Positions 1,382 to 47,881 of a DNA stretch of 64,000 nucleotides are shown here, piece after piece. Where the stretch lies: sequence record MF402939. One strand, 5' to 3'. Under the pieces are notes generated by a model. It had not been told where the DNA came from. It was given only the letters and a program-made list of their open reading frames with translations, and made no database searches. A program made the translations under genes and the position numbers. This stretch comes from Escherichia phage OSYSP. Position 1 is the first letter of the stretch. Each line of letters begins with the position of its first letter.

Positions 1382-1410
1382 ATTATAACAAGAAATAAGA
1401 GAGAAGGCAA
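1382..1410 (-). promoter_or_regulatory. sigma70-type early promoter (TTGCCT-17-TATAAT)
   Basis: Read on minus strand; AT-rich upstream region; member of the repeated promoter family in this window. Confidence 0.6.
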
Positions 1411-1425
1411 ATGAATTTTTAAATT

Positions 1426-1500
1426 TGGTGCTCCCACCAGGAATCGAACCCGGTTCAGATGCTTACAAGGCAACTGCATCGCCAGCAATGCTTTAGGAGC
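1426..1500 (-). tRNA. tRNA-Thr (anticodon TGT)
   Basis: Acceptor GCTCCTA/TGGGAGC, anticodon loop CTTGTAA, T-arm CCGGG-TTCGATT-CCTGG, CCA encoded. Confidence 0.6.
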
Positions 1501-1667
1501 AATAAACCCGTTATTTCAACGGGATTTCTTTTTCAAATATAGGGGACTTATCAGACATTACTGTCATAGCCAACTGCTGTAGAAATTCGAATGAGAGTTT
1601 TAAACGTTCTTCTCCTAACTCAACCTCAACGCACTTCATTCGTTTATCTACTTTTAGCTTTAGATTA

Positions 1668-1889
1668 TCAGCCATCTTCGGATTCTCTTTGCTCAGCTAT
1701 TGCTAGCCAGTCTGGTAAAAGAAACTTCGTACGAAATTCTTCATATGTTTCTTCTGGATGAAAGCTATAGCCTTGTTTTTCATCATTTAATAAAACCGAA
1801 CCATCTTCTTGCTCATAAGCTCGGTATGTTTCACCAATAATTAAAACTCGTCTATTAGGATTTTTATTACGAAACTCAAAAACGTCCAT
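1668..1889 (-). CDS. hypothetical protein (73 aa)
   Basis: ORF track; AAGGA SD upstream. Confidence 0.55.
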   Translation of the reverse strand: MDVFEFRNKNPNRRVLIIGETYRAYEQEDGSVLLNDEKQGYSFHPEETYEEFRTKFLLPDWLAIAEQRESEDG

Positions 1890-1904
1890 AACGTTTCCTT
1901 AAAT

Positions 1905-1979
1905 TGGTGCGGGATACGAGAGTCGAACTCGTGTCTACTGGTTGGAAGCCAGTTATTCTAGCCACTGAACTAATCACGC
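1905..1979 (-). tRNA. tRNA-Gly (anticodon TCC)
   Basis: Anticodon arm ACTGG-CTTCCAA-CCAGT, D-arm GTTC-AGTGGCTA-GAAT, CCA encoded; one acceptor mismatch. Confidence 0.6.
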
Positions 1980-1985
1980 ATAAAT

Positions 1986-2061
1986 TGGCTGGAGAAGGAG
2001 GAATCGAACCTACCATTAACGGAGTCAAAGGCCGTTGTGCTAACCATTACACTACTCTCCA
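1986..2061 (-). tRNA. tRNA-Gln (anticodon TTG)
   Basis: Acceptor starts U1 (TGGAGAG/TTCTCCA) with discriminator G as in bacterial tRNA-Gln; anticodon loop CTTTGAC; CCA encoded. Confidence 0.6.
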
Positions 2062-2067
2062 AGTATT

Positions 2068-2143
2068 TGGCTGGGATGCCACGGATCGAACGTGGGACCT
2101 TCGGAGTCAGAGGCCGACGATCTGCCAATTGATCTACATCCCA
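2068..2143 (-). tRNA. tRNA-Gln (anticodon CTG)
   Basis: Acceptor TGGGATG/CATCCCA, anticodon loop CTCTGAC, T-arm CCACG-TTCGATC-CGTGG, discriminator G, CCA encoded. Confidence 0.6.
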
Positions 2144-2156
2144 ATAATTCTTTACT

Positions 2157-2351
2157 CTACGGAAATAGAGTAACTGGCTCAGGTTCTTCAAGGCGCTTAC
2201 CTTCATGATCTACTCGAATGACTCCGCATCCTTCGCAAACCACAACTGCACCATAACCTTCTTTGACTTCGGCTTCTGTAATCAGACCAGCTAAGTCACC
2301 AGTATCTTTACCCCACATATCAATGGAGCATTGTTTGCAGAAATCAGCCAT
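2157..2351 (-). CDS. small zinc-ribbon-like protein (64 aa, CxxC...CxxC)
   Basis: ORF track; two CxxC pairs; AGGA upstream. Confidence 0.55.
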   Translation of the reverse strand: MADFCKQCSIDMWGKDTGDLAGLITEAEVKEGYGAVVVCEGCGVIRVDHEGKRLEEPEPVTLFP

Positions 2352-2376
2352 ATTTTATTTCCTATTTAAGTTAATT

Positions 2377-2453
2377 TGGGGTGGCTAGTGGAATTCGAAT
2401 CCACATAGGCCTGATTCACAATCAGGATCATTAACCAATTATGATATAGCCAC
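2377..2453 (-). tRNA. tRNA-His (anticodon GTG)
   Basis: Acceptor GTGGCTA/TAGCCAC, anticodon arm CCTGA-TTGTGAA-TCAGG, T-arm GTGGA-TTCGAAT-TCCAC, discriminator C, CCA encoded. Confidence 0.7.
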
Positions 2454-2820
2454 AATTGAAAACTCGCAGGGTTAGCGAAACCATCCTCAATTAGCATGTT
2501 CTAGAATACTAATCAAGTTATCTCCTATTGCACGCAGCTCAAGACGAGTACGAATTTTCAATTGTGGCGGCTCTCAGAAACTCTTCTATTCTAGCCTCAG
2601 AAGCTTACCCCCGAACGCATGTCGGGAAAGTCTTTCCAAGCGCATCAAATAGCACCGTTACACTTTGAGCCATTGATGTATCAAGGAATAGAAGGACTTG
2701 AACCTTCATGAGTTAGACCATTTAACTCAACCGCTTTTAAGGTATATTTCTAGGAGTGGATGTTCCTAGTAAACCTATTGGGCAGTCCCGTCTACCAATT
2801 CCGGCATATTCCAAGAATTT

Positions 2821-3003
2821 TTATAAACCAGCGGAAGCCTCATTTAAAGCATCAACAATAGCCTGTTGTTGAGTCCATCCTCTACCAGTAGAATTAACGT
2901 GTGGAAGATATACTTCCCAATAACCGTCTTCTAGTAAGGTTATTTGTGCACTAAACTCTGTGCCATCAGTTAGTGTAACCTTCACAGTTTTCGTTAAAGA
3001 CAT
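2821..3003 (-). CDS. hypothetical protein (60 aa)
   Basis: ORF track only; weak SD. Confidence 0.4.
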   Translation of the reverse strand: MSLTKTVKVTLTDGTEFSAQITLLEDGYWEVYLPHVNSTGRGWTQQQAIVDALNEASAGL

Positions 3004-3019
3004 ATATTACCCTATAAGT

Positions 3020-3109
3020 TGGCAGAAGATAATGGAGTCGAACCATCACCGTATCACTACAGCGGGCTGGTTTTCAAGACCAGTTACGTACCACTACGTC
3101 CTATCTTCT
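3020..3109 (-). tRNA. tRNA-Ser (anticodon TGA), type II
   Basis: Acceptor AGAAGAT/ATCTTCT, anticodon arm CTGGT-CTTGAAA-ACCAG, long variable arm, CCA encoded. Confidence 0.6.
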
Positions 3110-3122
3110 AGTATTTATTATA

Positions 3123-3470
3123 CTAATAGTCACTCGTACTAGTGAAGTTTTCTACTTTTCCACAGATTTTACAAGTCCTACGATGATAATAGGTAATTTT
3201 TACTTTAGACCAGCCATCGTGATCATTACCTAGGTTTTCTGTTACTCCCCAAGTATGAGAACACTCATTTTCAATTTGCTTAGTAAGAGCGTTATAGCGA
3301 GTATAAAACTCCTCCTGAGCAATAGCAAATTCTTTCTGTAGTTTATCACGAGCAATAATAGCACGTTCCAGATATGTTAAATCAGGCATTCCAGCTTTTT
3401 CAGCTGCATCTATAATCTTATCTTCATCTAAAGATGCTAAAAACTCTAGAGCTTTATCTTTTGCTAGCAT
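3123..3470 (-). CDS. hypothetical protein (115 aa) with C-terminal zinc-ribbon-like motif
   Basis: ORF track; GAGGT SD; C-terminal C..H...CKICG. Confidence 0.6.
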   Translation of the reverse strand: MLAKDKALEFLASLDEDKIIDAAEKAGMPDLTYLERAIIARDKLQKEFAIAQEEFYTRYNALTKQIENECSHTWGVTENLGNDHDGWSKVKITYYHRRTCKICGKVENFTSTSDY

Positions 3471-3489
3471 TATTATTACCTCAATTGTT

Positions 3490-3580
3490 TGGCGGAAGAG
3501 GAGAGATTTGAACTCTCAAGCCGTTTTACCAGTCAGCCACTTTCCAAGCGGTTTTCGTCGCCAATTCGATTTGCTCTTCC
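3490..3580 (-). tRNA. tRNA-Ser (anticodon GGA), type II
   Basis: Acceptor GGAAGAG/CTCTTCC, T-arm GAGAG-TTCAAAT-CTCTC, anticodon loop TTGGAAA with 4-bp stem, long variable arm, CCA encoded. Confidence 0.5.
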
Positions 3581-3692
3581 AATAATAAGATGATGCCTCT
3601 ATCACACCAGGCAGTTACGCCTCGCTGGGATTCGAACCCATTAAAACAGCTCAACCGAGATAGTAGGTTTAATTTACTCTGACCATCAAATT

Positions 3693-3769
3693 TGGTGCGT
3701 GACAAGGGATTCGAACCCTCAAAACCCGACTTCTAAGGACGGTATGTATGCCAATTCCATCAATCACGC
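3693..3769 (-). tRNA. tRNA, anticodon TAG (Leu CUA reader?) with short variable arm
   Basis: Acceptor GCGTGAT/GTCACGC, anticodon arm CCGTC-CTTAGAA-GTCGG, T-arm GAGGG-TTCGAAT-CCCTT, discriminator A, CCA encoded; 77 nt, not the type II length expected for Leu. Confidence 0.45.
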
Positions 3770-3774
3770 GTATT

Positions 3775-3853
3775 TGGTGGAGGATAACGAATTCGAATCG
3801 TTCTGATGTCCTCGGTGCAAGCGAGGTGTCCACCCCTAGCAGACCCATCCCCC
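3775..3853 (-). tRNA. tRNA-Ala (anticodon TGC)
   Basis: Acceptor GGGGGAT/ATCCTCC with G3-U70 pair (Ala identity), anticodon arm CCTCG-CTTGCAC-CGAGG, T-arm AACGA-TTCGAAT-TCGTT, CCA encoded. Confidence 0.65.
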
Positions 3854-4092
3854 AAATTCTTTAGTTTACTAAGGCTATTAGCTCGGCGTAACTACAGCAC
3901 CTTCGCTTCGAGCGGAAGGAACCGCGTCATCTCGCAAACCCGATACACTATTCAGTTGCCGTTGAATCTAGTGGACTAATCTAGAACTTCTCCCGAATCG
4001 TAGGGATCGTGCTTTTTGGCAGCCAGTCCTAGGTCGAGCTAATACCTTAGTGAACTATGATGGGGATTTCTCCCCTATCAATTAATATAAAT

Positions 4093-4121
4093 ATTATAAC
4101 AAGAAATTAAGCATTAAGCAA
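4093..4121 (-). promoter_or_regulatory. sigma70-type promoter (TTGCTT-17-TATAAT) driving leftward transcription into ORF-free region 3854-4092
   Basis: Consensus hexamers with 17-nt spacer on minus strand; overlaps stop of CDS 4114-4473. Confidence 0.6.
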
Positions 4122-4473
4122 GTACATTTTTGCAGATTTCTTGTAGTTCCTTTACATCACGAACGTAAAGGTAGTCTGAACTTCCAGAGTGCATACTTTG
4201 CATAAACACACCCTCATCTGGCGCAGCATCCTTCAAAGTAATTCCTAACCAAAAAGCGGCAAAACGAGGTGTTACCTCACCTTGACTTGCCTTGAATACA
4301 TCGGCTTCTGTGATCTCCTGACCAGTAGAAAGTCCCATATACGGTACGTTCAGATCAATATCTTTGTAGAATTCAGCTAGGTCTTGTTCGAAGTCCCAAC
4401 CTTTAGAGATAGCGAACTCTATTGTTACATGACCGAAATAGCCTTGAACCTTGCTTGATAATTGCATTTGCAA
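4114..4473 (-). CDS. hypothetical protein (119 aa)
   Basis: ORF track; AAGGA SD. Confidence 0.6.
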   Translation of the reverse strand: MQMQLSSKVQGYFGHVTIEFAISKGWDFEQDLAEFYKDIDLNVPYMGLSTGQEITEADVFKASQGEVTPRFAAFWLGITLKDAAPDEGVFMQSMHSGSSDYLYVRDVKELQEICKNVLA

Positions 4474-5627: not shown

Positions 5628-5659
5628 TTTGCTTTCCTTCTCTTCACTTTATAAAATAT

Positions 5660-5688
5660 ATTATACAGAGAATTAAGCAGAATAGCAA
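5660..5688 (-). promoter_or_regulatory. sigma70-type early promoter (TTGCTA-17-TATAAT)
   Basis: Consensus hexamers on minus strand with AT-rich upstream element. Confidence 0.65.
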
Positions 5689-5999
5689 ATGAATTTTTAA
5701 TAAATTTACTTATTGTGTAGGCCACCTGGAGGCTATGAACCCCACGGCTGACAAAGAAGTTTGCGAGACCTCTCTTAAATGCCAGAATAGACCCGCCTAT
5801 CTATCGGAACCTACTCAATAAGTAAACTTTCGTTTACTTACGCCCCGTTAGAGGGACTTTAGCGACTAGAACCGGCCGGAAACTTTATCGCCTTGTTTAT
5901 TAAGAAGTCCGTTCTCTAGGAAGCAGAAATCTAAATTTGGTGGAGTTTGGGAGACTACGTGTTACTTCCTCTGTCCGAAGTAGGACAGTGCTTAACCGT

Positions 6000-7523: not shown

Positions 7524-7760
7524 TTACTCTCCAGTAGGATTATCTAAGGTATACTGAGTAGCTACTCCAGCTACATCTAGCAGACTTCCCATATTCCTAA
7601 TAACTCTAGAGATTGCGTCACCTTCGGCAGTTTCTGTAAACACCTTAAGTCTTAAGAAATCGCCACCACCATCCATACCAGAGAAAATATTTAGTAAGCG
7701 AAGCATTACCAACTTACGTTCATTCAATTCTTGTTCTGTCATGTTGCTTCTCCAGTTCAA
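7524..7760 (-). CDS. hypothetical protein (78 aa)
   Basis: ORF track; GGAGA SD. Confidence 0.6.
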   Translation of the reverse strand: MNWRSNMTEQELNERKLVMLRLLNIFSGMDGGGDFLRLKVFTETAEGDAISRVIRNMGSLLDVAGVATQYTLDNPTGE

Positions 7761-7792
7761 TTTATGTAATTATTATATAGAACTTTTGGAAA

Positions 7793-8065
7793 CTAAGCAA
7801 CTACATTTTTTAAGAATTTGATGCCTTTCTTTTTCTTCTTATATTTCCACGTTAATGGATTTTGTCGATTATGAACGCTTGAGATCTTTGTCTCGTCAAA
7901 GTTCTTCAATATCATGTAATCACAGGATAATTGTTCTAGTGGAATGTGATCACCGTCAAAAGCGTATACATAAGGCTGTTGACTAGCACGATAATGATAG
8001 ACTTTGTTAATTCTACGTTTCAGCGACTTATCCGCGCAGTAAATAAAGAAGTTTTCAGGATGCAT
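7793..8065 (-). CDS. hypothetical protein (about 90 aa)
   Basis: ORF track ORF 7793-8080 trimmed to internal ATG (MHPENFF...) that has AGGAG at 6-nt spacing; the first ATG abuts the tRNA 3' end. Confidence 0.5.
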   Translation of the reverse strand: MHPENFFIYCADKSLKRRINKVYHYRASQQPYVYAFDGDHIPLEQLSCDYMILKNFDETKISSVHNRQNPLTWKYKKKKKGIKFLKNVVA

Positions 8066-8414: not shown

Positions 8415-8542
8415 ATATTTAGAAGCATTCAAATACTTGTTTAAACACTTTTAAATATGTTTCCAAATTAGATAACTATTATATCAAGTTTTAAGGCACT
8501 GAGCAAGTCAGATTTTGAAGAACTTGCTCAGTGCTGTATTAG

Positions 8543-8818: not shown

Positions 8819-8908
8819 TCGTTAACTCCTTCATCAATTTATATAACTATTATATCAGAAATTTAAAGTAAAAGGCAAGTACATTTTTAAAAATTCTGTT
8901 CGGAGGAG

Positions 8909-9957: not shown

Positions 9958-10046
9958 TGGCGGAAGAAGTGGGAATCGAACCCACAAGGCTATATTTCAA
10001 ACCGACAGATTAGCAATCTGCTGCAATACCGTTATGCTATTCTTCC
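9958..10046 (-). tRNA. tRNA-Ser (anticodon GCT), type II
   Basis: Acceptor GGAAGAA/TTCTTCC, anticodon arm GCAGA-TTGCTAA-TCTGT, long variable arm, T-arm GTGGG-TTCGATT-CCCAC, CCA encoded. Confidence 0.65.
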
Positions 10047-10067
10047 GAATTTATAAGATATATTATA

Positions 10068-10586
10068 TTAGAAATTTAGCTTCATAGCAAGAAAATTTTT
10101 CAAGTTTTCGGTAGACATCTCATCCACATCTACAGGAGAAACAAATCCATTTAATTGTCTAGCAAATTTTTCACCAGCAGGATCATTATCCCCAACAGCT
10201 ACCAATTTAAAAGGTAGTAATTTCAATTGCTTTAACAACGCTTTTCCTGGAGAAGAACCCAACATTGCCAGGGCTGGATAACCAGCGTTATGTAATGCTA
10301 CTGCCTTAAATACAGATTCAGCAATCAATACTACTTTTTCATCCCCAGTGAGGGTTTCTAGCCCCCATACACACTGTGTAGTAGAATAAGTAAAATATCT
10401 AGCTTCAAAGGGGCACTTACCATGACCTTTTGGAGCAGAAGGATTATACGTCTGATAGCCTCTCAACATCCCAGAGAAGTCATACAATGGGACTGTTAGC
10501 CATCCTTCCGGACTTAACCAGCAATGATACTTATCTGTATCAAACCCTCTAGATAAGAGATGTTCTGTTAGTTCATCAACAGTCAT
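10068..10586 (-). CDS. small Toprim-domain protein (about 172 aa)
   Basis: Start moved to ATG (MTVDEL...) after GAGAGAGG SD, because the first ATG of track ORF 10068-10637 lies inside the promoter; motifs IAESV...GSS...LVAVGDNDPAGEKFA match a Toprim fold. Confidence 0.6.
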   Translation of the reverse strand: MTVDELTEHLLSRGFDTDKYHCWLSPEGWLTVPLYDFSGMLRGYQTYNPSAPKGHGKCPFEARYFTYSTTQCVWGLETLTGDEKVVLIAESVFKAVALHNAGYPALAMLGSSPGKALLKQLKLLPFKLVAVGDNDPAGEKFARQLNGFVSPVDVDEMSTENLKNFLAMKLNF

Positions 10587-14230: not shown

Positions 14231-14449
14231 TTACTACATAAGTGATTTCCACACCCCACTATTTATAAATTAGAGAAGAGTTTAGGGGAGAGGTTTCAGA
14301 CGCCTCATTTTACACGTTCTAGCCACTAACCGGGATTGCCGCCCCCTGTGTACTAGTTTTACAACTAACCCACCGACTCTATTCAATGCGCTCCGGTTGG
14401 GATTCTGCACTCAGCGTAATCGGCTCGCTGTTCCCTAATTTATGAATAT

Positions 14450-14478
14450 ATTATACAGAATTTATAAGCATTTAGCAA
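14450..14478 (-). promoter_or_regulatory. sigma70-type early promoter (TTGCTA-17-TATAAT)
   Basis: Consensus hexamers on minus strand. Confidence 0.6.
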
Positions 14479-14486
14479 ATAAATTT

Positions 14487-14930
14487 TTAATTAAATTCGC
14501 CAGCAATCTGAGCAGCAGTACCACCATCATAACGCCCGGGAAATTCTTCCTTAATCGCTTTCATCAGCATACCTTTTGTAATTCCAGGGTTTAGCTTAAC
14601 TAATTCTGCAAAGTATTTACGAATCTCAGTATCAGATAACTGAGGAGGCAGATACTCCTGCAACCACTTATTTAGAATGTATTCATACTGAGCGGACTGC
14701 AAGCTATAACTATCAAGATCTTGACCATGAAGTTTAGCTTTCATCTGGTTAATGCTTTTTAGTTGAGCTTTGAGATAAGACACAAATTGTTCAGAAGTGA
14801 TGAAATCTTTATCAATACGCTGAAGATCCCCGATTATGGTCTGATAGCTTTTAGCGACTTCTTTATCAGAACCATTAAACTTAGAATCCTGCAAAGCTCT
14901 ACGCAAAACATCTAAAATATTCTCTTCCAT
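14487..14930 (-). CDS. GatB/YqeY-domain-like protein (147 aa)
   Basis: ORF track; size and motifs (GITKGMLMKAIKEEFPGRYDGGTAAQIAGE) resemble YqeY-family proteins; start overlaps stop of upstream small ORF. Confidence 0.5.
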   Translation of the reverse strand: MEENILDVLRRALQDSKFNGSDKEVAKSYQTIIGDLQRIDKDFITSEQFVSYLKAQLKSINQMKAKLHGQDLDSYSLQSAQYEYILNKWLQEYLPPQLSDTEIRKYFAELVKLNPGITKGMLMKAIKEEFPGRYDGGTAAQIAGEFN

Positions 14931-15100: not shown

Positions 15101-15131
15101 ATTTCGCTTCCTCTCATTAATTTATGGAAGT

Positions 15132-15160
15132 ATTATACGGAAATTTAAGTATTTAAGCAA
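15132..15160 (-). promoter_or_regulatory. sigma70-type promoter (TTGCTT-17-TATAAT)
   Basis: Consensus hexamers on minus strand. Confidence 0.6.
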
Positions 15161-15168
15161 GTAAATTT

Positions 15169-15636
15169 TTAAGTTTTAGTGACAACAGGTTTATAAAACG
15201 TATGTCCCTTAATCTTAGTTGTTTTCTTAAACTTCTTTGTCCAGTAAGGTTTATCTTTACCACTATGGAAGTATAGTGCTCCATATGTAGGATCTTGTGG
15301 TAAATCAACGTAGTATATCACTCTAGCTAAATTCTTAGCGGTTTGCCAAGCCTCATCAGTTTTATCAACTTTTGGTCTCTTAGATACCCAAGAGAACTGG
15401 TTAGACTGATATACTACTTTACAGTAGGAATCTGGGAATTTACCGGAGTTTACACGGTTTTTAGTAACGTGTGCAATCGCCGTCATTCCCTTTATGCCCT
15501 CACCACGACTTTCGAAATAGATATTTTTAGCAATGCAATCTATTTCTTTTGCATCGTGCGATGCCTGACTACTAAAGCTGAAGGTAAGGGCAGCTACTAA
15601 AAGCAAAGCTGCCTTCATTCTTTTTACTCCTGCCAA
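15169..15636 (-). CDS. secreted cell-wall hydrolase, SleB/CwlJ-like domain, with signal peptide
   Basis: 155 aa; N-terminal signal peptide (MKAALLLVAALTFSFSSQA); core resembles the SleB/Hydrolase_2 family; start overlaps upstream gene. Confidence 0.55.
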   Translation of the reverse strand: MAGVKRMKAALLLVAALTFSFSSQASHDAKEIDCIAKNIYFESRGEGIKGMTAIAHVTKNRVNSGKFPDSYCKVVYQSNQFSWVSKRPKVDKTDEAWQTAKNLARVIYYVDLPQDPTYGALYFHSGKDKPYWTKKFKKTTKIKGHTFYKPVVTKT

Positions 15637-15941: not shown

Positions 15942-15971
15942 AATAGCCTCGTTTCATCAATTTAAAAATAT

Positions 15972-16000
15972 ATTATACAGATAACTTAATAAATTAGCAA
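15972..16000 (-). promoter_or_regulatory. sigma70-type promoter (TTGCTA-17-TATAAT)
   Basis: Consensus hexamers on minus strand upstream of the receiver/hydrolase/YqeY operon. Confidence 0.6.
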
Positions 16001-16383
16001 ATACATTTTTAAATTGTGAAACTAGTAAACCGATAAACAGCCTAGAGGCGCCACAGGCCATATCTTATGAGCCATGTACCTTTGATCTAGGGTTTGAATC
16101 ATCAACGAATACTTTGCATCTTTTAGCTTTAGAAGTTTAGAAGTTTGAGTTCTTTAAACTTTTCAGCTTTCATACTTAAATGTTGATCTTTGAAGTTGTG
16201 TCGGTAATATCAACGACGCTTTGTTCTTACGTGTCAGCTTAAAAGGCTGGTGTAATAAACATAATCTCCAATAGATTATACTTTATAGTATGGTCAGCGG
16301 TCTTATTTAACCTCGTATTTCAACCGCTGCTGCGAGGTAAGATGCTTGGGCTTTCGTCTACCGATTTACTAGCTTTTAAATTA

Positions 16384-17258: not shown

Positions 17259-17298
17259 ATTTGTTTTCCTTTTATTGTTTTCTCAAATTTATGAATAT

Positions 17299-17327
17299 AT
17301 TATACAGAATTTTGGAGCCGGAAGCAA
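17299..17327 (-). promoter_or_regulatory. sigma70-type promoter (TTGCTT-17-TATAAT)
   Basis: Consensus hexamers on minus strand. Confidence 0.6.
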
Positions 17328-17328
17328 A

Positions 17329-18030
17329 TCAAATTTTCATTTTTTCGATCATAGCTGCAACACAATAGCTTTCAACTAAGGCATCAAATGCAGGATCATG
17401 CTTAACCGGATAGATCCCATAACGAATGGTGTCCATCTTCTCCATTTTAGCTATTGCCCAGCTAATACCTTCGGTCTCTAGAGCCTTATAACTGTATCCA
17501 GCTTGCATCCAGAGATTACGAAGAGATCGAACATTACCCAAATTCCAGAATTTCCACGGAACTACCTCTTCATTGGTTCCAGCATGGAACGTGTTTGCAG
17601 AGTATATAGTCATATCAAACTCTGGGCCATTGCCATAATACAAAGCATTTTCGCCTAGAGCCAACTCCATAATATTTTGAGTCATAGAGAAGGCAGCATA
17701 GTTTGAGCCTAATTTATTAGTGCAATGATGTTTACCATTTTGGAAGGCAATCAGTTTTGGATTACGTTCCTTCATAGCTTCCATAATGTGAATAGCAGAC
17801 GGGCTATTTTTAGCTTGATCCATCCAGAATGCTAGAGTAGATGCTGTAACTTTGGCACCAGAATTAAGCTGATCCTGCACATCCAAAGTAACAAATACTA
17901 AGTCAGGGTCTTTATCAATCCCATGCATAGCCACAAAAGCGAAAGAAGGCATTGCAATATGAGTAGTACCACAATCTCCTGGAGTTCCTAGAGATTCAAT
18001 ATCTAGCATACCAAATGGTTTTACTTTCAT
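17329..18030 (-). CDS. DEDDh-type 3'-5' exonuclease-like protein
   Basis: 233 aa; MLDIESLG (Exo I D-x-E) and HDPAFDALVESY (Exo III H-x4-D) motifs; AAGGA SD. Confidence 0.5.
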   Translation of the reverse strand: MKVKPFGMLDIESLGTPGDCGTTHIAMPSFAFVAMHGIDKDPDLVFVTLDVQDQLNSGAKVTASTLAFWMDQAKNSPSAIHIMEAMKERNPKLIAFQNGKHHCTNKLGSNYAAFSMTQNIMELALGENALYYGNGPEFDMTIYSANTFHAGTNEEVVPWKFWNLGNVRSLRNLWMQAGYSYKALETEGISWAIAKMEKMDTIRYGIYPVKHDPAFDALVESYCVAAMIEKMKI

Positions 18031-19132: not shown

Positions 19133-19170
19133 TATTTGTTTTCCTTTTTGTTTATCAATTTATGAAGTAT

Positions 19171-19199
19171 ATTATACGAGAATTTGAAGCGTTTAGCAA
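19171..19199 (-). promoter_or_regulatory. sigma70-type promoter (TTGCTA-17-TATAAT)
   Basis: Consensus hexamers on minus strand. Confidence 0.6.
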
Positions 19200-19207
19200 A
19201 TGAATTT

Positions 19208-19657
19208 TTAATTTATTAACTGTAATCTTCTTTTAATTTCAGACCTTACCTGCATCAAAAGAACTCCCAAAGTATTATCCCCGATGCCTCGGCAAACACC
19301 CCAATATGTATCTCCCCAGGTATTTCCTTCAATCAAAGTTGCACTTTCTGTTGCTAACAGTTTATCTCTCAAATCAGGGATTGCAAACTTTAACCGTAAA
19401 AGCTCTAGCATTACATCATCTTTTACCTTATCCCAGTCAGAGCGTAGAGTTAATTTACGTCCTCTACGTTTAGCAACTCCTGCATTCAGGGAGCGTAGTA
19501 CATGAGCTACATCATCTTTTTGGTCGGATTTTATAGCCTGAAAAGCATGTTCTACAGTATCAGCATGCCATATTTCATTTAGATATTCGAAAGTAATTGG
19601 TGATAAATAAAAGTTAGATAAGAAACTATAAGCACCTTTAAATTCAGTAATCTTCAT
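19208..19657 (-). CDS. NADAR (YbiA-like, DUF1768) domain protein
   Basis: 149 aa; matches YbiA pattern: YSFLSNFY, W..DTVEHAFQAIK, KRRGRK, LL.LKF, LLAT....LIEGN..GD.YWG...G.G.N.LG.LLM.VR. Confidence 0.75.
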   Translation of the reverse strand: MKITEFKGAYSFLSNFYLSPITFEYLNEIWHADTVEHAFQAIKSDQKDDVAHVLRSLNAGVAKRRGRKLTLRSDWDKVKDDVMLELLRLKFAIPDLRDKLLATESATLIEGNTWGDTYWGVCRGIGDNTLGVLLMQVRSEIKRRLQLIN

Positions 19658-19938: not shown

Positions 19939-20014
19939 AAAGCCCTCCTCACTTTCAATACGAATATTATACTAAATTAGAGGGCTTTAAGCAAGAAGAT
20001 TTTTAATTTATTTA

Positions 20015-20691: not shown

Positions 20692-20785
20692 ATGTGTATC
20701 TCCAATTTATAAAATATATTATATTTAAATTTCACTAAATAAGCAAATGAAATTTAAATATAATAGCCCCGAAGGGCTATTTGAG

Positions 20786-23300: not shown

Positions 23301-23407
23301 TGATTTTCCTCTTTCTCACTATTTCAGGAATATTATAGCAAATCAGGTAGCGATTAGCAAGTAAAATTTCAAAGAAAAAGGAGACCCGAAGATCTCCTTG
23401 TTTTTTA

Positions 23408-26865: not shown

Positions 26866-26929
26866 TCCTATAGTGTACTTCGCTAACAGAGGATCAACAA
26901 AAAGATCTTGTTTATCAACTTACAAATAT

Positions 26930-26958
26930 ATTATACCAGTATATGCAGTAAAAAGCAA
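26930..26958 (-). promoter_or_regulatory. sigma70-type early promoter (TTGCTT-17-TATAAT) for phoH-nrd operon
   Basis: Perfect hexamers on minus strand; divergent control region 26866-27226 also holds promoters near 27004-27032 (+) and 27060-27090 (-). Confidence 0.7.
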
Positions 26959-27168
26959 CTACAATTTTAAATAAGCCTATGATATTGCATTTAAATAAAA
27001 AATTTGCTTGCTTTTAATGGGAAATGTATGATATTAGATAATCATTTTATATCGCGTACATAGGCGCGTGATTATACTATTTTAAGTACAAAATAGCAAA
27101 TAAATTTTTTAACAATTTGCTAACCTTTTAGCACAGATCAAAATACAATATCTAAGAGAAAAATTATA

Positions 27169-27198
27169 TTGACATTTGCCCTTGAATAAGCTATAATA
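27169..27198 (+). promoter_or_regulatory. sigma70 promoter (TTGACA-18-TATAAT) for nrdD
   Basis: Perfect -35 and -10 hexamers. Confidence 0.7.
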
Positions 27199-29108: not shown

Positions 29109-29142
29109 AGCCAGGTTGCTAGTCGACCTGGCTTTTATTTTA
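29109..29142 (+). terminator. rho-independent terminator after nrdD
   Basis: 8-bp stem AGCCAGGT/ACCTGGCT followed by TTTTATTTTATTT. Confidence 0.65.
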
Positions 29143-29143
29143 T

Positions 29144-29172
29144 TTGCTTTCAGCTAAAAATTTATGTATAAT
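29144..29172 (+). promoter_or_regulatory. sigma70 promoter (TTGCTT-17-TATAAT) with downstream ATAAATTTGAGGGGAG box
   Basis: Consensus hexamers. Confidence 0.65.
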
Positions 29173-29200
29173 AGATTTATAAATTTGAGGGGAGAAAGAT

Positions 29201-32256: not shown

Positions 32257-32298
32257 CCGTACTCAAGACCAATGATAGCACCATCCGGAAAATTTTAC

Positions 32299-32327
32299 TT
32301 GCAGGATGCCCAAAATCTTGATATAAT
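32299..32327 (+). promoter_or_regulatory. sigma70 promoter (TTGCAG-17-TATAAT, extended -10 TGATATAAT)
   Basis: Hexamers read directly; followed by about 500 nt of ORF-free leader. Confidence 0.6.
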
Positions 32328-32826
32328 ATTTATATTGAATTGAGAGACATTAGTAAAAATTGATTTTGCTAATTTTTCTTGTTTACAATCCGCGATACGG
32401 AACAGTTAGGCTGCCCCATTAAGGGTTGTTTTAACTGTTACGTGTTAGTTTTTAAACAAATAATTAATAGAATACTTAGCGATCTGCGTCCCGTAGGAAC
32501 CCTGGTAAGGCCTCGAAGCAACCTAGATAGAGGTGGTTGTGAAGTGAGACGGGAGGAGTGAAAAACTCCGAGACGTGATTCTGTAAGTTATATTGCATCT
32601 AGTATGAGCTAGTATATGAAGCATTAGGTGAGCAAATCTGGCTTAGCGGCCATCCTCAAGGATTTGTGCGGTATAGCAAAGCAGCAGCGCAGCGTGAAAG
32701 TGGAAGTTGCCACCCCACTTCAGTATTTGCGATTAATTTGTTGAGAAATTGACAGTAACAGTTGTTCTATTCTTTCTGAATAGTCCTAAAGAAAACTTAT
32801 TTCATTTCCAATACAGGAGTATTGTT

Positions 32827-35616: not shown

Positions 35617-35833
35617 AAAATGGGAAACAAGGAAGTTTCCAGTAAAAGAACGTAAAGTTCCTGTTTATGATACTTCGGAAAAGCTATGTAGGGTGGTACC
35701 GCACAGATTAGCTGGCATCCCTAACATATCCGAATGGTTACTTAAACAACGGAGGACTAACGTATCTCTTCGCATAGGGTTTGAGTTAGATAAAGTATAT
35801 GCTGAACTTTCTTCTTTGCTCAAAGAATCATAA
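35600..35833 (+). CDS. hypothetical basic protein (about 77 aa)
   Basis: Track ORF 35591-35833 trimmed to ATG with AGGTG SD; overlaps end of helicase gene. Confidence 0.4.
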   Translation: MTVKNKKWETRKFPVKERKVPVYDTSEKLCRVVPHRLAGIPNISEWLLKQRRTNVSLRIGFELDKVYAELSSLLKES

Positions 35834-35842
35834 AAAATTTAT

Positions 35843-35871
35843 TTGCTTTCAGGAAAATTTTTCTGTATAAT
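35843..35871 (+). promoter_or_regulatory. sigma70 promoter (TTGCTT-17-TATAAT) with ATAAATTTGAGAGAGGAG box
   Basis: Consensus hexamers. Confidence 0.65.
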
Positions 35872-35902
35872 AGATTCATAAATTTGAGAGAGGAGTTTAA
35901 AT

Positions 35903-36851: not shown

Positions 36852-36954
36852 CTACTTAAAAATTTCAGTTGCTTAATCCTACAATTCTTGATATAATATT
36901 CTCATAGTTTGAAAGAACTATTCTGTTTAATTCTTAATTAAGGAAATATAAAAT

Positions 36955-38073: not shown

Positions 38074-38084
38074 TATAAATGTAT

Positions 38085-38113
38085 TTGCTTTCAACTCAGT
38101 TTTGTTATATAAT
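38085..38113 (+). promoter_or_regulatory. sigma70 promoter (TTGCTT-17-TATAAT)
   Basis: Consensus hexamers. Confidence 0.65.
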
Positions 38114-38144
38114 ATTTATATAAATTAATGAGAGATATAAATAA

Positions 38145-39166: not shown

Positions 39167-39195
39167 TTGACATTTTCGCCGCTTAGGTATATACT
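39167..39195 (+). promoter_or_regulatory. sigma70 promoter (TTGACA-17-TATACT) between ligase parts
   Basis: Hexamers read directly. Confidence 0.55.
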
Positions 39196-39259
39196 ATTAT
39201 CATTCAGTTGAGGGATAGAAAGTTATGGCGAGGGTAAGCAAAGTTAGTTAAAATTGTAG

Positions 39260-39289
39260 TTGCTAAATGCTTAAATACTTGCTATAATA
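39260..39289 (+). promoter_or_regulatory. sigma70 promoter (TTGCTA-18-TATAAT) between ligase parts
   Basis: Consensus hexamers. Confidence 0.6.
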
Positions 39290-39318
39290 TTTATATAAAT
39301 TGATAAGGAAGAAATTTG

Positions 39319-42410: not shown

Positions 42411-43297
42411 GTAGAATAACAGAACTACTTGATCTGAAAGGCATTGAATATAAAGACACAGGTGGGGACATCCTCATCTGTTGTCTCAATCCAGATCATG
42501 ACGATAAACACCCAAGTTTGCGTATTGACCCTGAAACAGGTATTATGCACTGCTTGAGTTGTGGCTTCGGTAAAGGTATACCGAGCATTTACCATTATTT
42601 TAATGAGACTCAGTACCGACAGTCCCCAAGGCTATCGCAAGTACGTAAAAAGATTTCAGAGATTAGGAATGGATCAACGAATCTTGCAATTCCTGAATCT
42701 GCTTACCTTTTCGAAGGTGATTTCCGAGGTATAAGTTCTAAGACCTTGAAGAAATATTTTGCTTTCCAACACCAAGCAGACTGGGAAGGCAGAATTGTAT
42801 TCCCAATCACAGATGCTGTTGGACGCAATATCCTATTTTTGGGTCGTTCTATAAACAGTTCTGCCCCTCCTAAATACTTAGTAAAACCAAAACAAGTTTC
42901 ACCGCCAATTTTTCCTGTACGATATAATACTCCAGTCCTTATTCTAGTTGAAGGCATCTTTGATATGCTGAACCTAGAGGATAATGGTATAGACTATGCT
43001 TCTTGCTGCTTTGGTACACATCAGTTTACTTCGGATAACATTGCAGATAAGTTCAGTCCTTATATTATCGCCGGTGTAAAAGTTGTTGTTATCTTACTAG
43101 ATAATGATGCTTCTGGTAATAAAGCTGCCCAGGCTCTAGCAAAATTAATTCGTACAAAAACACGTTTAACACCTGTAGTTGCTAACTTCTTACTTCCAGA
43201 GGGTAAGGATCCTGGTGATTTAAATAAAGAAGAAGTCGATACGTTAGCAAAACGTATTGAAATTTTAGTTGCTGAATCACTTAAAGATTTGGTATAA
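42407..43297 (+). CDS. DnaG-like DNA primase (zinc-binding plus Toprim)
   Basis: 296 aa; zinc motif CCLNPDHDDKHPS...HCLSCGFGKG; Toprim motifs ILVEGIFDML and LLDNDASGNKAAQ; ATGA overlap with helicase. Confidence 0.8.
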   Translation: MSRITELLDLKGIEYKDTGGDILICCLNPDHDDKHPSLRIDPETGIMHCLSCGFGKGIPSIYHYFNETQYRQSPRLSQVRKKISEIRNGSTNLAIPESAYLFEGDFRGISSKTLKKYFAFQHQADWEGRIVFPITDAVGRNILFLGRSINSSAPPKYLVKPKQVSPPIFPVRYNTPVLILVEGIFDMLNLEDNGIDYASCCFGTHQFTSDNIADKFSPYIIAGVKVVVILLDNDASGNKAAQALAKLIRTKTRLTPVVANFLLPEGKDPGDLNKEEVDTLAKRIEILVAESLKDLV

Positions 43298-43359
43298 TAT
43301 ATTGGTAAGTTAGAGAAGAAACACTGAAGTTATACTTACTTACCAAGAGGAGATTAAAT

Positions 43360-45927: not shown

Positions 45928-46417
45928 TTTCAAATTGCCCGTCTATGCGTTACGGGCGTTTGTATCAATTGAGCAAGAAGGTGATTATTCCGTAATTACA
46001 ACAAGGTATAATAAATATGTGCTAGATAACAGGAAGTTGCCTGGCACGTTTTCTCAACGTAGGCTTATTCTATTTGAGAAACGGAAAGAATTACCATACA
46101 AGCTCTACCCTATTAGAGGTAGAATATCAATGTTGTCTCAATTAGTTGGGTCAAAGCGTAGCCAATTTATAGATTCTGATGGAAATCTTATTAACTGGAA
46201 GAAAACTACGTTCTATGATGTTGTCACCTCTAAAGTTTTGCATTCAGCTAGAATTTATAATGGAAAATACCAATGCTATGTGGCTAAAGTCCCTTATCCA
46301 TTTGTATTATCCTATGTTCCAGCTTATATAAGCTATATTCTGGTAAATAATAGCCATGTTATTTATCAAGTCCATCAAGAGGAGCCTGAAATTCCTAGAC
46401 TTAGAATAAAATTATGA
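45920..46417 (+). CDS. hypothetical protein (165 aa)
   Basis: ORF track; GTG start after AAAGGA; overlaps polymerase stop; AT-rich codon usage unlike neighbours. Confidence 0.5.
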   Translation: MLNFKLPVYALRAFVSIEQEGDYSVITTRYNKYVLDNRKLPGTFSQRRLILFEKRKELPYKLYPIRGRISMLSQLVGSKRSQFIDSDGNLINWKKTTFYDVVTSKVLHSARIYNGKYQCYVAKVPYPFVLSYVPAYISYILVNNSHVIYQVHQEEPEIPRLRIKL

Positions 46418-47766
46418 AGGTTGTTATATCTAATAAAGCCTATTTCAAGCCCGATGATGAACTTTGGGATTATTGTAGTAAGCAAACCACTTATCACATA
46501 GAGACAATGACTAGTAAATACCCTATTATGTATAAGAATAGTGGTGTTGTTGCCAAAGAGATTAAGTGGATTCCTATTACGCGTCTGGACTTACTAGATG
46601 CTAAAGGAGTAAAATACGAATTAGTCGATAAACGTACATTAGCTCCGGTAGACATACCAAAACCTAAGTTCAAATTGCGCGAAGAAGATCAACTTCCAAT
46701 ATACGAAGAGTGCGATGATACCTGTATTATTAATGGTAAGCCTGGATTTGGTAAAACTATCCTAGCCCTTGCACTTGCGTATAAATTTGGTCAGAAAACT
46801 TTGGTAATCTGTACGAATACATCCATTCGTGAAATGTGGGCGGCAGAAGTTCGTAAATGGTTTGGGTTTGAACCAGGCATCATAGGTTCTGGGAAATACA
46901 ATATTGATCCACCAATTGTAGTCAGTAATATTCAAACAGTGAATAAACACGCGAATAATCTTTCTAAAGTATTCGGTACTGTTATAGTTGATGAAGTTCA
47001 CCATTGTGTGGCTACAACTTTCACTAACTTCCTAGAAATATCATGTGCTCGCTATAAAATTGGACTATCCGGTACACTAAAACGAAAAGATGGTTTACAA
47101 GTTATGTTCAAAGATTTCTTTGGATATAAGATATTTAGCCCGCCGGTTAATAATACTGTTGCACCTACAATCCATAGGTACTCCGTGCCTGTTGAGCTAT
47201 CAGGAAACCAAAACGTGCCGTGGGCATTACGTGCTAACGATGTGTATAATCATCCTGAATATCGAGAGACTATTATAAACCTAGCACATTTATATGTGAA
47301 TATGGGACATAAAGTACTCATTGTAAGTGATAGAACAGAGTTAATCCAAACAGTACTAGAAGCACTATCTCAGAGAGGAGTCACAACCTATGAGATTATT
47401 GGCGCAACTCACTTAGATGACCGATTAAAAATTCAGGAAGATATAGCAAAAGGTGGGCCTTGTGTGCTTGCAGCAGCTCAAAGTATCTTCTCTGAGGGTA
47501 TTTCCCTTAATGAGCTATCTTGTTTAATAATGGGAAGCCTTATTAATAATGAATCTCTCATTGAACAGCTTGCAGGCCGTGTTCAACGTATTGTCGATGG
47601 TAAACTCGACCCTATTGTTGTAGATCTAATTATGAAAGGTGGCACTGGACTAAGACAGGCTTCTGGACGTATGGCAGTATATCGTAACAACGGGTGGAAA
47701 ACTATTACTATGACTCCGGAGAAAGCAGTTCAATTAGCTAAAATTGCATTTGGCAACAGCTCATAA
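46414..47766 (+). CDS. SF2 (SNF2/DEAD-like) helicase
   Basis: 450 aa; Walker A GKPGFGKT, Walker B VDEVHH, C-terminal helicase motifs; ATGA overlap. Confidence 0.8.
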   Translation: MKVVISNKAYFKPDDELWDYCSKQTTYHIETMTSKYPIMYKNSGVVAKEIKWIPITRLDLLDAKGVKYELVDKRTLAPVDIPKPKFKLREEDQLPIYEECDDTCIINGKPGFGKTILALALAYKFGQKTLVICTNTSIREMWAAEVRKWFGFEPGIIGSGKYNIDPPIVVSNIQTVNKHANNLSKVFGTVIVDEVHHCVATTFTNFLEISCARYKIGLSGTLKRKDGLQVMFKDFFGYKIFSPPVNNTVAPTIHRYSVPVELSGNQNVPWALRANDVYNHPEYRETIINLAHLYVNMGHKVLIVSDRTELIQTVLEALSQRGVTTYEIIGATHLDDRLKIQEDIAKGGPCVLAAAQSIFSEGISLNELSCLIMGSLINNESLIEQLAGRVQRIVDGKLDPIVVDLIMKGGTGLRQASGRMAVYRNNGWKTITMTPEKAVQLAKIAFGNSS

Positions 47767-47778
47767 ATGATGTATAAT
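47749..47778 (+). promoter_or_regulatory. sigma70 promoter (TTGGCA-18-TATAAT)
   Basis: Hexamers at end of helicase gene; downstream ATAAATTTGAGAGAGAG box. Confidence 0.5.
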
Positions 47779-47851
47779 ATATACATAAATTTGAGAGAGA
47801 GAAAGTTTCGGATTGATAAGAAAGTCCGAAGCAGAAAAATAAAAATTTTAG

Positions 47852-47881
47852 TTGCTAAATTCTCTCGAAATCTAGTATAAT
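47852..47881 (+). promoter_or_regulatory. sigma70 promoter (TTGCTA-18-TATAAT)
   Basis: Consensus hexamers; downstream ATAAATTCGAGGAG box. Confidence 0.6.

What the first reader, a model, noticed from the sequence alone, without database searches (positions are those of the whole stretch)
1382..47881. More than 30 near-consensus sigma70 promoters sharing a conserved downstream box
Promoters of the form A/T-rich upstream, TTGCTT/TTGACA, 17-18 nt, TATAAT recur on both strands, and most are followed by a conserved element approximating ATA(T)ATTnATAAATTTGAGAGAGG that merges into the ribosome binding site. This matches the strong early-promoter architecture known for T5. The shared downstream box may be a regulatory or RNA-processing site.
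Basis: partly seen in the sequence, partly recalled or inferred. Interest (0 to 1): 0.35.

Follow-up and report, generated by a model that had tools for sequence, protein, structure and literature searches.

The report
Known T5 early promoter family
The window is part of a T5-like phage genome, and the repeated motif is the long-known family of very strong T5 'early' promoters (including the counterpart of the N25 promoter studied as a model of transcription initiation); the shared 'downstream box' is the start of the transcript, which for N25 is already known to help RNA polymerase leave the promoter, so the finding is real but ordinary.

Summary
26 sites between 1358 and 47905 share a ~65-bp architecture: an A-tract at -45..-38, TTGCTW, a 17/18-bp spacer, TATAAT, an ATATTy discriminator, then ATAAATT(G)(A/G) from +1 and a purine-rich Shine-Dalgarno stretch. 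They score >=40 bits; the best of 30 shuffled windows scores 17.4. All are co-oriented with the downstream genes.

The window is a T5-like phage. Every member has a T5 orthologue already annotated as an early promoter or as 'repeat b/c'. Site 35843-35871 is the orthologue of P_N25.

The 'downstream box' is not an independent element:
- It never occurs away from a promoter.
- It sits 6-7 nt after the -10.
- It is kept where a tRNA follows.
- It is absent from T5 pre-early and late promoters.
- It is conserved in Klebsiella and Vibrio relatives while flanks diverge.

The published work read here shows that the native N25 initial transcribed sequence speeds promoter escape, and that the ATATT discriminator marks the early class. 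I found no support for an RNA-processing site. Verdict: already known; low interest.

The parts
1358..1421 (-). Early promoter (-46..+18); -35 TTGCCT 1410-1405, -10 1387-1382, predicted +1 1375; ATG at +25. T5P16 orthologue
4069..4132 (-). Early promoter; +1 4086 (ATTAATTGA); no ORF nearby, tRNA-Ala 233 nt downstream. T5 'repeat b copy 3'
5635..5699 (-). Early promoter; +1 5652; ATG at +26. T5P17 / repeat c1
7748..7811 (-). Early promoter; +1 7765; ATG at +24. T5P18
8454..8517 (-). Early promoter with degenerate box (CTAATTTGG); +1 8471; tRNA-Tyr 57 nt downstream. T5P19
8825..8889 (-). Early promoter (18-bp spacer); +1 8842; ATG at +25. T5P20
10037..10101 (-). Early promoter; +1 10054 (ATAAATTC); tRNA-Ser starts 8 nt after +1, so the box is kept without any translation signal. 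'P15b' in NC_005859
10593..10656 (-). Early promoter; +1 10610 (ATAAATTTGAGAGAGG); ATG at +25. 'P15a' in NC_005859 / repeat c2
14426..14489 (-). Early promoter; +1 14443; no ORF or tRNA for about 217 nt. T5 'repeat c copy 3'
15108..15171 (-). Early promoter; +1 15125; ATG at +26. T5P22
15948..16011 (-). Early promoter; +1 15965 (TTAAATTGA); ATG at +25. T5P23
17275..17338 (-). Early promoter; +1 17292; ATG at +35. T5 'repeat c copy 4'
19146..19210 (-). Early promoter; +1 19163; ATG at +32. T5P25
19940..20005 (-). Early promoter with weak box (TGAAAGTGA); ATG about +20. T5P26
20693..20757 (-). Early promoter; +1 20710; ATG at +20. T5P27 region
23307..23371 (-). Early promoter with weak box, directly after a terminator hairpin (23399-23378); ATG at +25 (381-aa ORF). 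T5P28
26906..26969 (-). Early promoter; +1 26923 (GTAAGTTGA); 67-nt leader to the 250-aa ORF (PhoH-like by synteny with T5). T5P30
29133..29196 (+). Early promoter directly after terminator 29109-29133; +1 29179; ATG at +23. T5P31 / repeat c5
32288..32352 (+). Early promoter (TTGCAG); box TTGAATTGA; long leader. T5P32
35832..35895 (+). Orthologue of T5 P_N25 (T5P33, repeat c6): TTGCTT-N17-TATAAT-AGATTC-ATAAATTTGAGAGAGGAG; +1 35878; ATG 35903
36858..36921 (+). Early promoter; +1 36904 (ATAGTTTGA); 51-nt leader. T5P34
38074..38137 (+). Early promoter after terminator 38040-38068; +1 38120; ATG at +26 (ligase A by synteny). T5P35 / repeat b4
39249..39312 (+). Early promoter, best-scoring member (62 bits); +1 39295; TTG start at +22 (ligase B by synteny). 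T5P37 / repeat b5
43258..43322 (+). Early promoter upstream of the DNA polymerase gene (18-bp spacer, box GTAAGTTAG); +1 43305; TTG start 43360. Annotated 'promoter' in NC_005859; probably the 'Ppol' of PMC7472727
47739..47802 (+). Early promoter (TTGGCA); +1 47785 (ATAAATTTGAGAGAGA); first of a tandem pair. T5 'repeat c copy 7'
47841..47905 (+). Early promoter (18-bp spacer); +1 47888; second of the tandem pair. T5P38
27071..27197 (.). Divergent promoter pair at the strand switch: 27099(-) TTGCTA-17-TATAAT with the upstream A-tract but no downstream box, and 27169(+) a perfect TTGACA-17-TATAAT.
39167..39195 (+). TTGACA-17-TATACT site without A-tract or box (T5P36 orthologue). Similar non-family sites lie at 9472-9443(-) and 3328-3300(-)

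Best explanation
These are the early-class promoters of a T5-like phage, read by host sigma-70 RNA polymerase. Each is a compact block of about 65 bp:
- an A-rich UP-type element (AAAAAtTt, -45..-38) for the alpha C-terminal domains;
- a -35 TTGCT(T/A);
- a 17-bp (rarely 18-bp) A/T-rich spacer with its own loose consensus;
- a perfect -10 TATAAT;
- an A/T-rich discriminator (ATATTy, -6..-1);
- a start at A;
- an initial transcribed sequence ATAAATT(G)(A/G), almost free of C on the non-template strand;
- at protein genes, a purine-rich Shine-Dalgarno stretch and a start codon at about +20 to +26.

It is part of the promoter. It tunes the late steps of initiation (open-complex properties, abortive cycling, speed of promoter escape), so that polymerase held by very strong upstream contacts can still clear quickly. 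Because it is specific to the early class, it probably also makes these promoters distinguishable to phage factors that turn early transcription down.

Shown here: the motif, its statistics, its class specificity, its conservation, and its orthology to annotated T5 promoters. Taken from the literature: the start point and escape function of N25, and the ATATT/gpT5.026 link. Inferred: that all 26 sites behave like N25.
For: Identity:
- The window is T5-like.
- All 26 sites have T5 orthologues annotated as early promoters, 'promoter', 'P15a/P15b' or 'repeat b/c'. Repeats b and c are exactly the -10, discriminator and transcribed box.

Statistics.

Orientation: all 26 are co-oriented with downstream genes or tRNAs, with a start codon at +20..+26 in 14 of 26 and at +32/+35 in two more.

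The box belongs to the promoter:
- It sits 6-7 nt after TATAAT.
- It never occurs autonomously: 31 copies of ATAAATT lie outside promoters against about 28 expected.
- It is retained at tRNA and long-leader promoters (5.9 against 6.5 matches of 7, p=0.11; random A/T-rich sequence gives 3.9). This includes a site only 8 nt upstream of tRNA-Ser.

Class specificity in T5: the architecture is present in about 26 of 34 promoters annotated 'early' and absent from pre-early P1-P5 and late P39/P40/P42.

Selection: the same layout occurs in Klebsiella phage K7_rec1 and in Vibrio phages Bennett and D21, whose polymerases are 77%, 58% and 49% identical. In orthologous promoters +1..+9 is 69% identical, against 37-38% in the flanks and 44% in the spacer.

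Function:
- PMC12464699: N25 is limited at the escape step. [quoted passage not shown] The transcript has no C until +30, which matches.
- PMC7472727: all known T5 early promoters carry ATATT in the discriminator. gpT5.026 lowers RNA polymerase affinity for -5/+2 and reduces early transcription. Ppol and P15A are early in vivo by primer extension.
Against: No transcript data exist for this particular phage. Start points other than N25's are inferred by analogy. The escape function has been tested only for N25, not for the family consensus ATAAATTGA. Two members (19994, 23360) have weak boxes, and eight promoters annotated 'early' in T5 lack the architecture, so the box is not obligatory for early expression. 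The uniform +20..+26 start codon spacing shows that translation also constrains the region from about +8 onward.
Confidence: 0.85

Rival explanations
1. The box is mainly a translation module: an A/U-rich 5' leader (a ribosomal protein S1 / standby site) joined to the Shine-Dalgarno sequence. On this view it is conserved for ribosome loading, not for transcription.
For: The start codon lies at +20..+26 in 14 of 26 sites. Positions +8..+18 are purine-rich and SD-like. Leaders are short and uniform.
Against: The ATAAATT core is kept where nothing is translated. Examples are site 10054, 8 nt before tRNA-Ser, and sites 14443, 4086, 47785 and 47888. There is no significant drop at ORF-distal promoters (p=0.11). 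The core is fixed relative to the -10 (6-7 nt), while its distance to the start codon varies from 19 to 34 nt. This could still be a secondary function for +8 onward.
Confidence: 0.2
2. The discriminator plus box is a class-specific target through which a phage factor shuts early promoters off or tunes them at the early-to-late switch. Candidates are the RNA polymerase-binding gpT5.026, the D5 protein, or another early product.
For: The box is restricted to the early class in T5. PMC7472727 proposes that the ATATT discriminator explains the different effect of gpT5.026 on early and late promoters. The core is conserved down to Vibrio phages. A D5 orthologue is encoded in the window at 40088-40855.
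Against: There is no dyad symmetry or other operator-like feature. gpT5.026 has only modest effects in vitro and does not bind DNA. No experiment has addressed +1..+9. This idea is compatible with the best explanation and is not exclusive of it.
Confidence: 0.2
3. The box is an RNA-processing or stability determinant, for example an RNase E site or a 5'-end signal.
For: It is A/U-rich and predicted unstructured. Read-through transcripts from upstream promoters would contain it internally.
Against: It starts at +1 of its own transcript. It never occurs outside the promoter context. It is positioned relative to the -10, not to any RNA feature. Leader folds are no better than shuffles, with one exception that lies outside the box.
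Confidence: 0.05
4. TAAATT at +2..+7 acts as a -10-like element that causes sigma-70-dependent promoter-proximal pausing near +16..+18.
For: TAAATT keeps the two most critical -10 positions (A at position 2, T at position 6) and is nearly invariant.
Against: It matches TATAAT at only 4 of 6 positions, and the variants do not drift toward TATAAT. N25 is a heavily used in vitro template, and the papers read here describe abortive cycling, not a sigma-dependent pause.
Confidence: 0.05
5. The similarity is only the residue of duplication or recombination of a promoter cassette, without selection on the downstream part.
For: The T5 record lists the elements as dispersed repeats b and c.
Against: Orthologous promoters in phages with 49-77% identical polymerases keep +1..+9 (69% identity) while the spacer and flanks have diverged to 37-44%. 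Similarity between paralogues stops at the motif edges.
Confidence: 0.03

Closest known systems
Bacteriophage T5 early promoters (P_N25, P25, P26, P28, P15a/b, Ppol; T5P6-T5P38 in AY587007)
   Same: They are orthologous position by position. They share the A-tract, TTGCTW, 17-bp spacer, TATAAT, ATATT discriminator and ATAAATT start. The N25 orthologue is identical over the core from about -48 to +24.
   Different: Nothing of substance. Identity over the 450-nt contexts is 81-99%. Six members are labelled only as repeats or left unlabelled in AY587007 but are annotated as promoters in NC_005859.
T4 early promoters (from my own knowledge; the review PMC2988021 appeared but was not read)
   Same: Both are a large family of very strong sigma-70 phage promoters with an upstream A-rich element and an extended consensus beyond the hexamers.
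   Different: As I recall, the T4 early consensus differs at -35 and has no conserved transcribed box. T4 changes promoter use through ADP-ribosylation, AsiA and MotA. None of this was tested here.
rrnB P1-type promoters with a UP element and a regulatory discriminator (from my own knowledge)
   Same: Promoter strength comes from the UP element plus a near-consensus core, and the discriminator modulates open-complex behaviour.
   Different: The rrn discriminators are G+C-rich and give short-lived complexes that sense ppGpp and NTPs. The T5 discriminator is A/T-rich, and the conserved block continues into the transcript.
Sigma-70-dependent pause elements in initial transcribed regions (lambda PR', discussed in PMC4005639)
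   Same: Both are a conserved A/T-rich hexamer just downstream of +1 on the non-template strand.
   Different: There is no evidence of pausing at T5 early promoters, and the match to the -10 consensus is only 4 of 6.

Membership tests
T5 early promoter class | Orthologous position to a promoter annotated or mapped in phage T5 | tested here: met
   All 26 sites align to T5 at 81-99% identity and overlap 'putative early promoter', 'promoter', 'P15a/P15b' or 'repeat b/c' features.
T5 early promoter class | -35 TTGCT(T/A), 17-18 bp spacer, perfect -10 TATAAT | tested here: met
   There are 20 exact TTGCTW-N17-TATAAT matches against 0.07 expected. The other members differ by one or two bases in the -35 or have an 18-bp spacer.
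T5 early promoter class | A-rich UP-type element immediately upstream of the -35 | tested here: met
   A is present in 24-26 of 28 sites at -45..-42, carrying 0.8-1.4 bits over -45..-37. AAAAWTK-N2/3-TTGC occurs 28 times against 0.94 expected.
T5 early promoter class | ATATT-type A/T-rich discriminator (PMC7472727) | tested here: met
   The first base after TATAAT is A in 26 of 28 sites. The consensus is A-T-w-T-w-y with almost no G or C.
T5 early promoter class | Start at A followed by an N25-like initial transcribed sequence (ATAAATT...) | tested here: met
   Counts at +1..+7 are A20, T24, A24, A24, A22, T23 and T26 of 26. 16 sites match ATAAATT exactly.
T5 early promoter class | Absent from pre-early and late promoters (class specificity) | tested here: met
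   In T5 itself, pre-early P1-P5 and late P39, P40 and P42 score low on all three blocks. The late-region site 62865(-) in the window lacks the box.
T5 early promoter class | Used by E. coli sigma-70 RNA polymerase with early kinetics in infection | not testable with these tools
   Only literature on T5 is available: N25 in vitro (PMC12464699), and Ppol and P15A by primer extension in vivo (PMC7472727).
Sigma-70-dependent promoter-proximal pause element | -10-like hexamer in the initial transcribed region that engages sigma region 2 | tested here: inconclusive
   TAAATT at +2..+7 matches TATAAT at 4 of 6 positions, including A2 and T6. No pausing data are available.
Autonomous RNA-processing / regulatory RNA motif | Occurs independently of promoters, or has a conserved RNA structure | tested here: not met
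   ATAAATT occurs 31 times outside promoters against about 28 expected. Leader folds have z-scores near 0. Rfam finds only tRNAs.

The most novel reading that the evidence does not exclude
The nearly invariant ATAAA(TT) at +1..+7, together with the ATATT discriminator, is more than an easy-escape sequence. It would be a sequence-specific, class-defining signal on the non-template strand, read by RNA polymerase once a phage protein has modified it (gpT5.026 or another early product). That would make it the cis element of the still unexplained early-to-late transcription switch across the Demerecviridae, from coliphages to Vibrio phages.
Probability: 0.12. Interest if true: 0.45.

Novelty: already known. 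Interest (0 to 1): 0.1.

Why it matters
It matters little as a discovery. These promoters have been studied for decades (from memory, cloned and sequenced in the Bujard laboratory in the 1980s), they are annotated in the T5 GenBank records, and N25 is a standard model for abortive initiation and promoter escape.

Three results have modest value:
1. A clean, quantified definition of the family: 26 members and a discrete score gap.
2. The demonstration that the conserved downstream part is the discriminator plus +1..+9, not the GAGAGAGG stretch, and that it is independent of translation.
3. The observation that this transcribed core is conserved in Klebsiella and Vibrio relatives and is specific to the early class.

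The third point supports, but does not prove, the idea that the box takes part in temporal class control, whose mechanism in T5 is still described as unknown (PMC7472727).

Tried and rejected
- **Generic sigma-70 scan.** At the 9-of-12 threshold the number of sites equals the shuffle expectation, so hexamers alone carry no signal. I replaced this with tests of the extended motif.
- **Quoted 3' half of the box.** Only 3 matches were found, so GAGAGAGG was rejected as a conserved element.
- **Rfam scan of the whole window.** It found only tRNAs.
- **Folding of seven leaders.** The 5'-terminal hairpins of the polymerase, 36904 and 26923 leaders are no better than shuffles (z between +0.3 and -0.9). 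Only 47805-47832 stands out, and it lies outside the box. The idea of a conserved 5' operator on the polymerase mRNA was not pursued further.
- **Original papers.** The Bujard-laboratory papers (J Bacteriol 1985; EMBO J 1986) are not held. Their content is cited only through PMC12464699 or marked as my own recollection.
- **Search for a T5 transcriptome or genome-wide start-site map.** Nothing relevant was found.
- **Two literature calls failed on term syntax.**
- **Not attempted:** a scan of metagenome or viral contig collections for the motif outside the Demerecviridae. I judged it unlikely to change the verdict.
Full report
**What the window is.** Megablast of 1000-9000 and of 35700-36000 against the phage collection finds hundreds of T5-like phages (Tequintavirus and relatives) at 92-99% identity, including T5 itself. 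The window corresponds roughly to T5 positions 27-91 kb. That covers the tRNA region, the early genes for nucleotide metabolism and replication, and the start of the late tail genes. Genes run on the minus strand up to about 27.1 kb and on the plus strand from there to about 54 kb, which matches the GC skew.

**Checking the observation.** A loose hexamer scan (at least 9 of 12 matches) finds no more sites than shuffled sequence. The top of that list, however, is dominated by TTGCTA-N17-TATAAT. A regular-expression listing shows about 30 sites that share far more than the two hexamers.

Against 200 dinucleotide-preserving shuffles:
- TTGCTW-N17-TATAAT occurs 20 times (0.07 expected).
- TATAAT-N6/7-ATAAATT occurs 16 times (0.04 expected).
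- AAAAWTK-N2/3-TTGC occurs 28 times (0.94 expected).

An iterated three-block PWM (upstream plus -35; spacer end, -10 and discriminator; transcribed block with a free offset) converges on 26 sites scoring 40-62 bits. The next candidate scores 13 bits. In 30 shuffled windows the best score was 17.4 bits. The PWM scores are inflated because the model was trained on these sites; the regex counts are not affected. The family is therefore discrete and real.

Seventeen members lie on the minus strand between 1358 and 26969, and nine on the plus strand between 29133 and 47905. This matches the limits of the finding exactly. Five further sites have good hexamers but lack the extended motif: 3328(-), 9472(-), 27099(-), 27169(+) and 39167(+).

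**Anatomy.** Information content and base counts aligned on the predicted start give this layout:
- an A-tract at -45..-38 (A in 24-26 of 28 sites at four positions);
- TTGCT(T/A) at -35..-30;
- an A/T-rich spacer with a loose consensus (..GCTtAAAtTtCTg);
- TATAAT;
- a discriminator A-T-w-T-w-y;
- A-T-A-A-A-T-T at +1..+7 (20, 24, 24, 24, 22, 23 and 26 of 26);
- G at +8 (14 of 26) and a purine at +9 (26 of 26);
- a purine-rich stretch to about +18.

C is almost absent from the non-template strand between -7 and +13.

That part is the variable Shine-Dalgarno region. The start codon lies at +20..+26 in 14 sites and at +32/+35 in two more. At protein genes, promoter, leader and ribosome site therefore form one compact cassette.

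**Is the box a separate element?** No.
- It lies 6-7 nt after the -10 in nearly all members.
- ATAAATT occurs 47 times in the window: 16 at the predicted +1 of family promoters and 31 elsewhere, which is the chance level (28.4, sd 5.7).
- It does not depend on translation. Ten members drive tRNAs or long leaders, and they match ATAAATT nearly as well as the sixteen ORF-proximal ones (5.9 against 6.5 of 7; Mann-Whitney p=0.11; random 75% A/T sequence gives 3.9).
- At 10054 the box is followed after 8 nt by tRNA-Ser.

**Relation to T5.** All 26 sites have T5 orthologues.
- Twenty overlap 'putative early promoter T5Pnn' features in AY587007.
- Four overlap only 'repeat b' or 'repeat c'. Extracting those repeats shows they are TATAAT, the discriminator and the transcribed box, for example TGTATAATAGATTCATAAATTTGAGAGAG.
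- The two unlabelled sites, and one of the repeat-only sites, are annotated in NC_005859 as 'promoter' (upstream of pol) and 'P15b'/'P15a'.
- Site 35843-35871 is T5P33 / repeat c6. Its sequence TATAATAGATTCAT is the oligonucleotide that PMC7472727 gives as -12..+2 of N25. This fixes +1 at the A of ATAAATT, window position 35878.

I scored all class-labelled T5 promoters with the window-trained PWMs. The architecture is present in about 26 of the 34 promoters annotated 'early'. It is absent from the five pre-early promoters, which use TTGACA-type -35 boxes and unrelated downstream sequence, and from the three late ones.

**Conservation beyond T5.** The DNA polymerase served as a guide to distant relatives. 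I fetched about 42 kb from each of three phages:
- Klebsiella phage vB_Kpl_K7_rec1 (polymerase 77% identical, 46% G+C);
- Vibrio phage Bennett (58%);
- Vibrio phage D21 (49%).

Each carries 7-11 sites with the same layout. The consensus downstream of the -10 is:
- ATTT.CATAA.TTGA.GA in K7_rec1;
- ATT..CATAAATTGAAGA in Bennett;
- ATA..TATAAA.T.AAGA in D21.

For five sets of orthologous promoters (helicase/N25, ligase A, ligase B, polymerase, the D10-3'/ssb region), mean pairwise identity by segment is:
- 0.69 for +1..+9;
- 0.56 for the discriminator;
- 0.55 for +10..+18;
- 0.44 for the spacer;
- 0.48 for the UP region;
- 0.37-0.38 for the flanks.

The -10 and the TTG of the -35 are identical by construction of the site selection. 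The transcribed core is therefore under selection and is not merely a duplication remnant.

**How it most likely works.** The upstream half (UP-type A-tract, -35, spacer, perfect -10) gives very strong polymerase binding. PMC12464699 describes N25 as limited at the escape step. [quoted passage not shown] It also notes canonical and spacer UP elements, and that the transcript lacks C until +30, which agrees.

PMC7472727 reports three things:
- All early T5 promoters known so far contain ATATT in the discriminator, whereas late ones do not.
- gpT5.026 binds the beta subunit, lowers affinity for the -5/+2 non-template segment, and reduces early transcripts in vivo.
- Ppol and P15A behave as early promoters by primer extension.

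The best-supported reading is that the 'downstream box' is the discriminator plus the initial transcribed sequence of the early-class promoter. It serves efficient start and escape, and it possibly also serves class-specific down-regulation. A contribution of the A/U-rich leader to translation from +8 onward is likely, but it cannot explain the +1..+7 core.

The rival ideas have little or no support (see the rival list): RNA processing, sigma-dependent pausing, and pure duplication.

**Novelty and scores.** The finding is correct but already known. The promoters are annotated in public T5 records, and N25 is a standard model promoter. From memory, it is also the basis of widely used expression vectors. 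Interest is therefore low (0.1).

The least conventional reading that remains open is that the invariant +1..+7 core is a sequence-specific class signal read by phage-modified polymerase throughout the Demerecviridae (probability about 0.12).

**Limits.** No transcript data exist for this phage. The original 1985/1986 papers could not be read. The function of the consensus box has been tested experimentally only for N25.

Noticed in passing
window 62809-62865 (-): This is a late-region promoter, TTGATA-N17-TATAAT, with no early-type box (T5P39 orthologue). It is followed by AAGAGGAGAAATTAACTATGAGA. As far as I remember, this stretch matches the 'RBSII' ribosome site of T5-promoter expression vectors. 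The T5 copy reads attaaagaggagaaattaactatgaga.
   Followed up: partly
window 27071-27197: A divergent promoter pair sits at the strand switch. 27099(-) has the early-type A-tract, -35 and -10 but a G+C-rich palindromic sequence (cacgcgcctatgtacgcgat) where the box would be. 27169(+) is a perfect TTGACA-N17-TATAAT in front of the 624-aa ORF (nrdD by synteny). These exceptions may mark differently regulated early genes.
   Followed up: no
window 14227-14443 (-): A strong family promoter (+1 at 14443) is followed by about 217 nt with no ORF and no tRNA called by ARAGORN. Rfam then reports a weak tRNA at 14155-14226 (35.5 bits), and another at 9877-9951 (40.3 bits), both missed by ARAGORN. T5 annotates a pseudo-tRNA in the first region. 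This may be a non-coding RNA or a degenerate tRNA.
   Followed up: no
window 47805-47832 (+): A stable hairpin (GUUUCGGAUU...AGUCCGAAGC, -14 kcal/mol, z = -4.6) lies between the tandem promoters 47750 and 47852. It has no U-tail, so it is not an obvious terminator.
   Followed up: partly
window 43305-43362 (+); L003 19930-19952: The DNA polymerase leader starts with a possible 5'-terminal hairpin (GUAAGU...ACUUAC). Vibrio phage Bennett has a hairpin of different sequence at the same place. Neither fold is better than shuffled sequence (z about 0.1-0.3), so this is weak. It recalls the translational operator of T4 polymerase mRNA (from memory).
   Followed up: partly
window 29109-29149, 38040-38090, 23355-23399, 43236-43274: Four family promoters start 10-20 bp after a terminator-like hairpin. 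This gives compact terminator-promoter junctions between early transcription units.
   Followed up: no
T5 record AY587007 (L001, L005): There is an annotation inconsistency. Four full family members are labelled only 'repeat b/c' and two are unlabelled in AY587007, while NC_005859 annotates three of these that were checked as promoters. Conversely, several features labelled 'early promoter' in AY587007 (P6, P7, P15, P24) show no recognisable promoter in my scoring.
   Followed up: partly
window 40088-40855 (+): This ORF is the orthologue of the T5 D5 protein, 51% identical to the 'D5 protein' of Vibrio phage Bennett. From memory, D5 is the DNA-binding factor needed for early shut-off and late transcription. 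It is transcribed from the ligase B promoter at 39260.
   Followed up: partly
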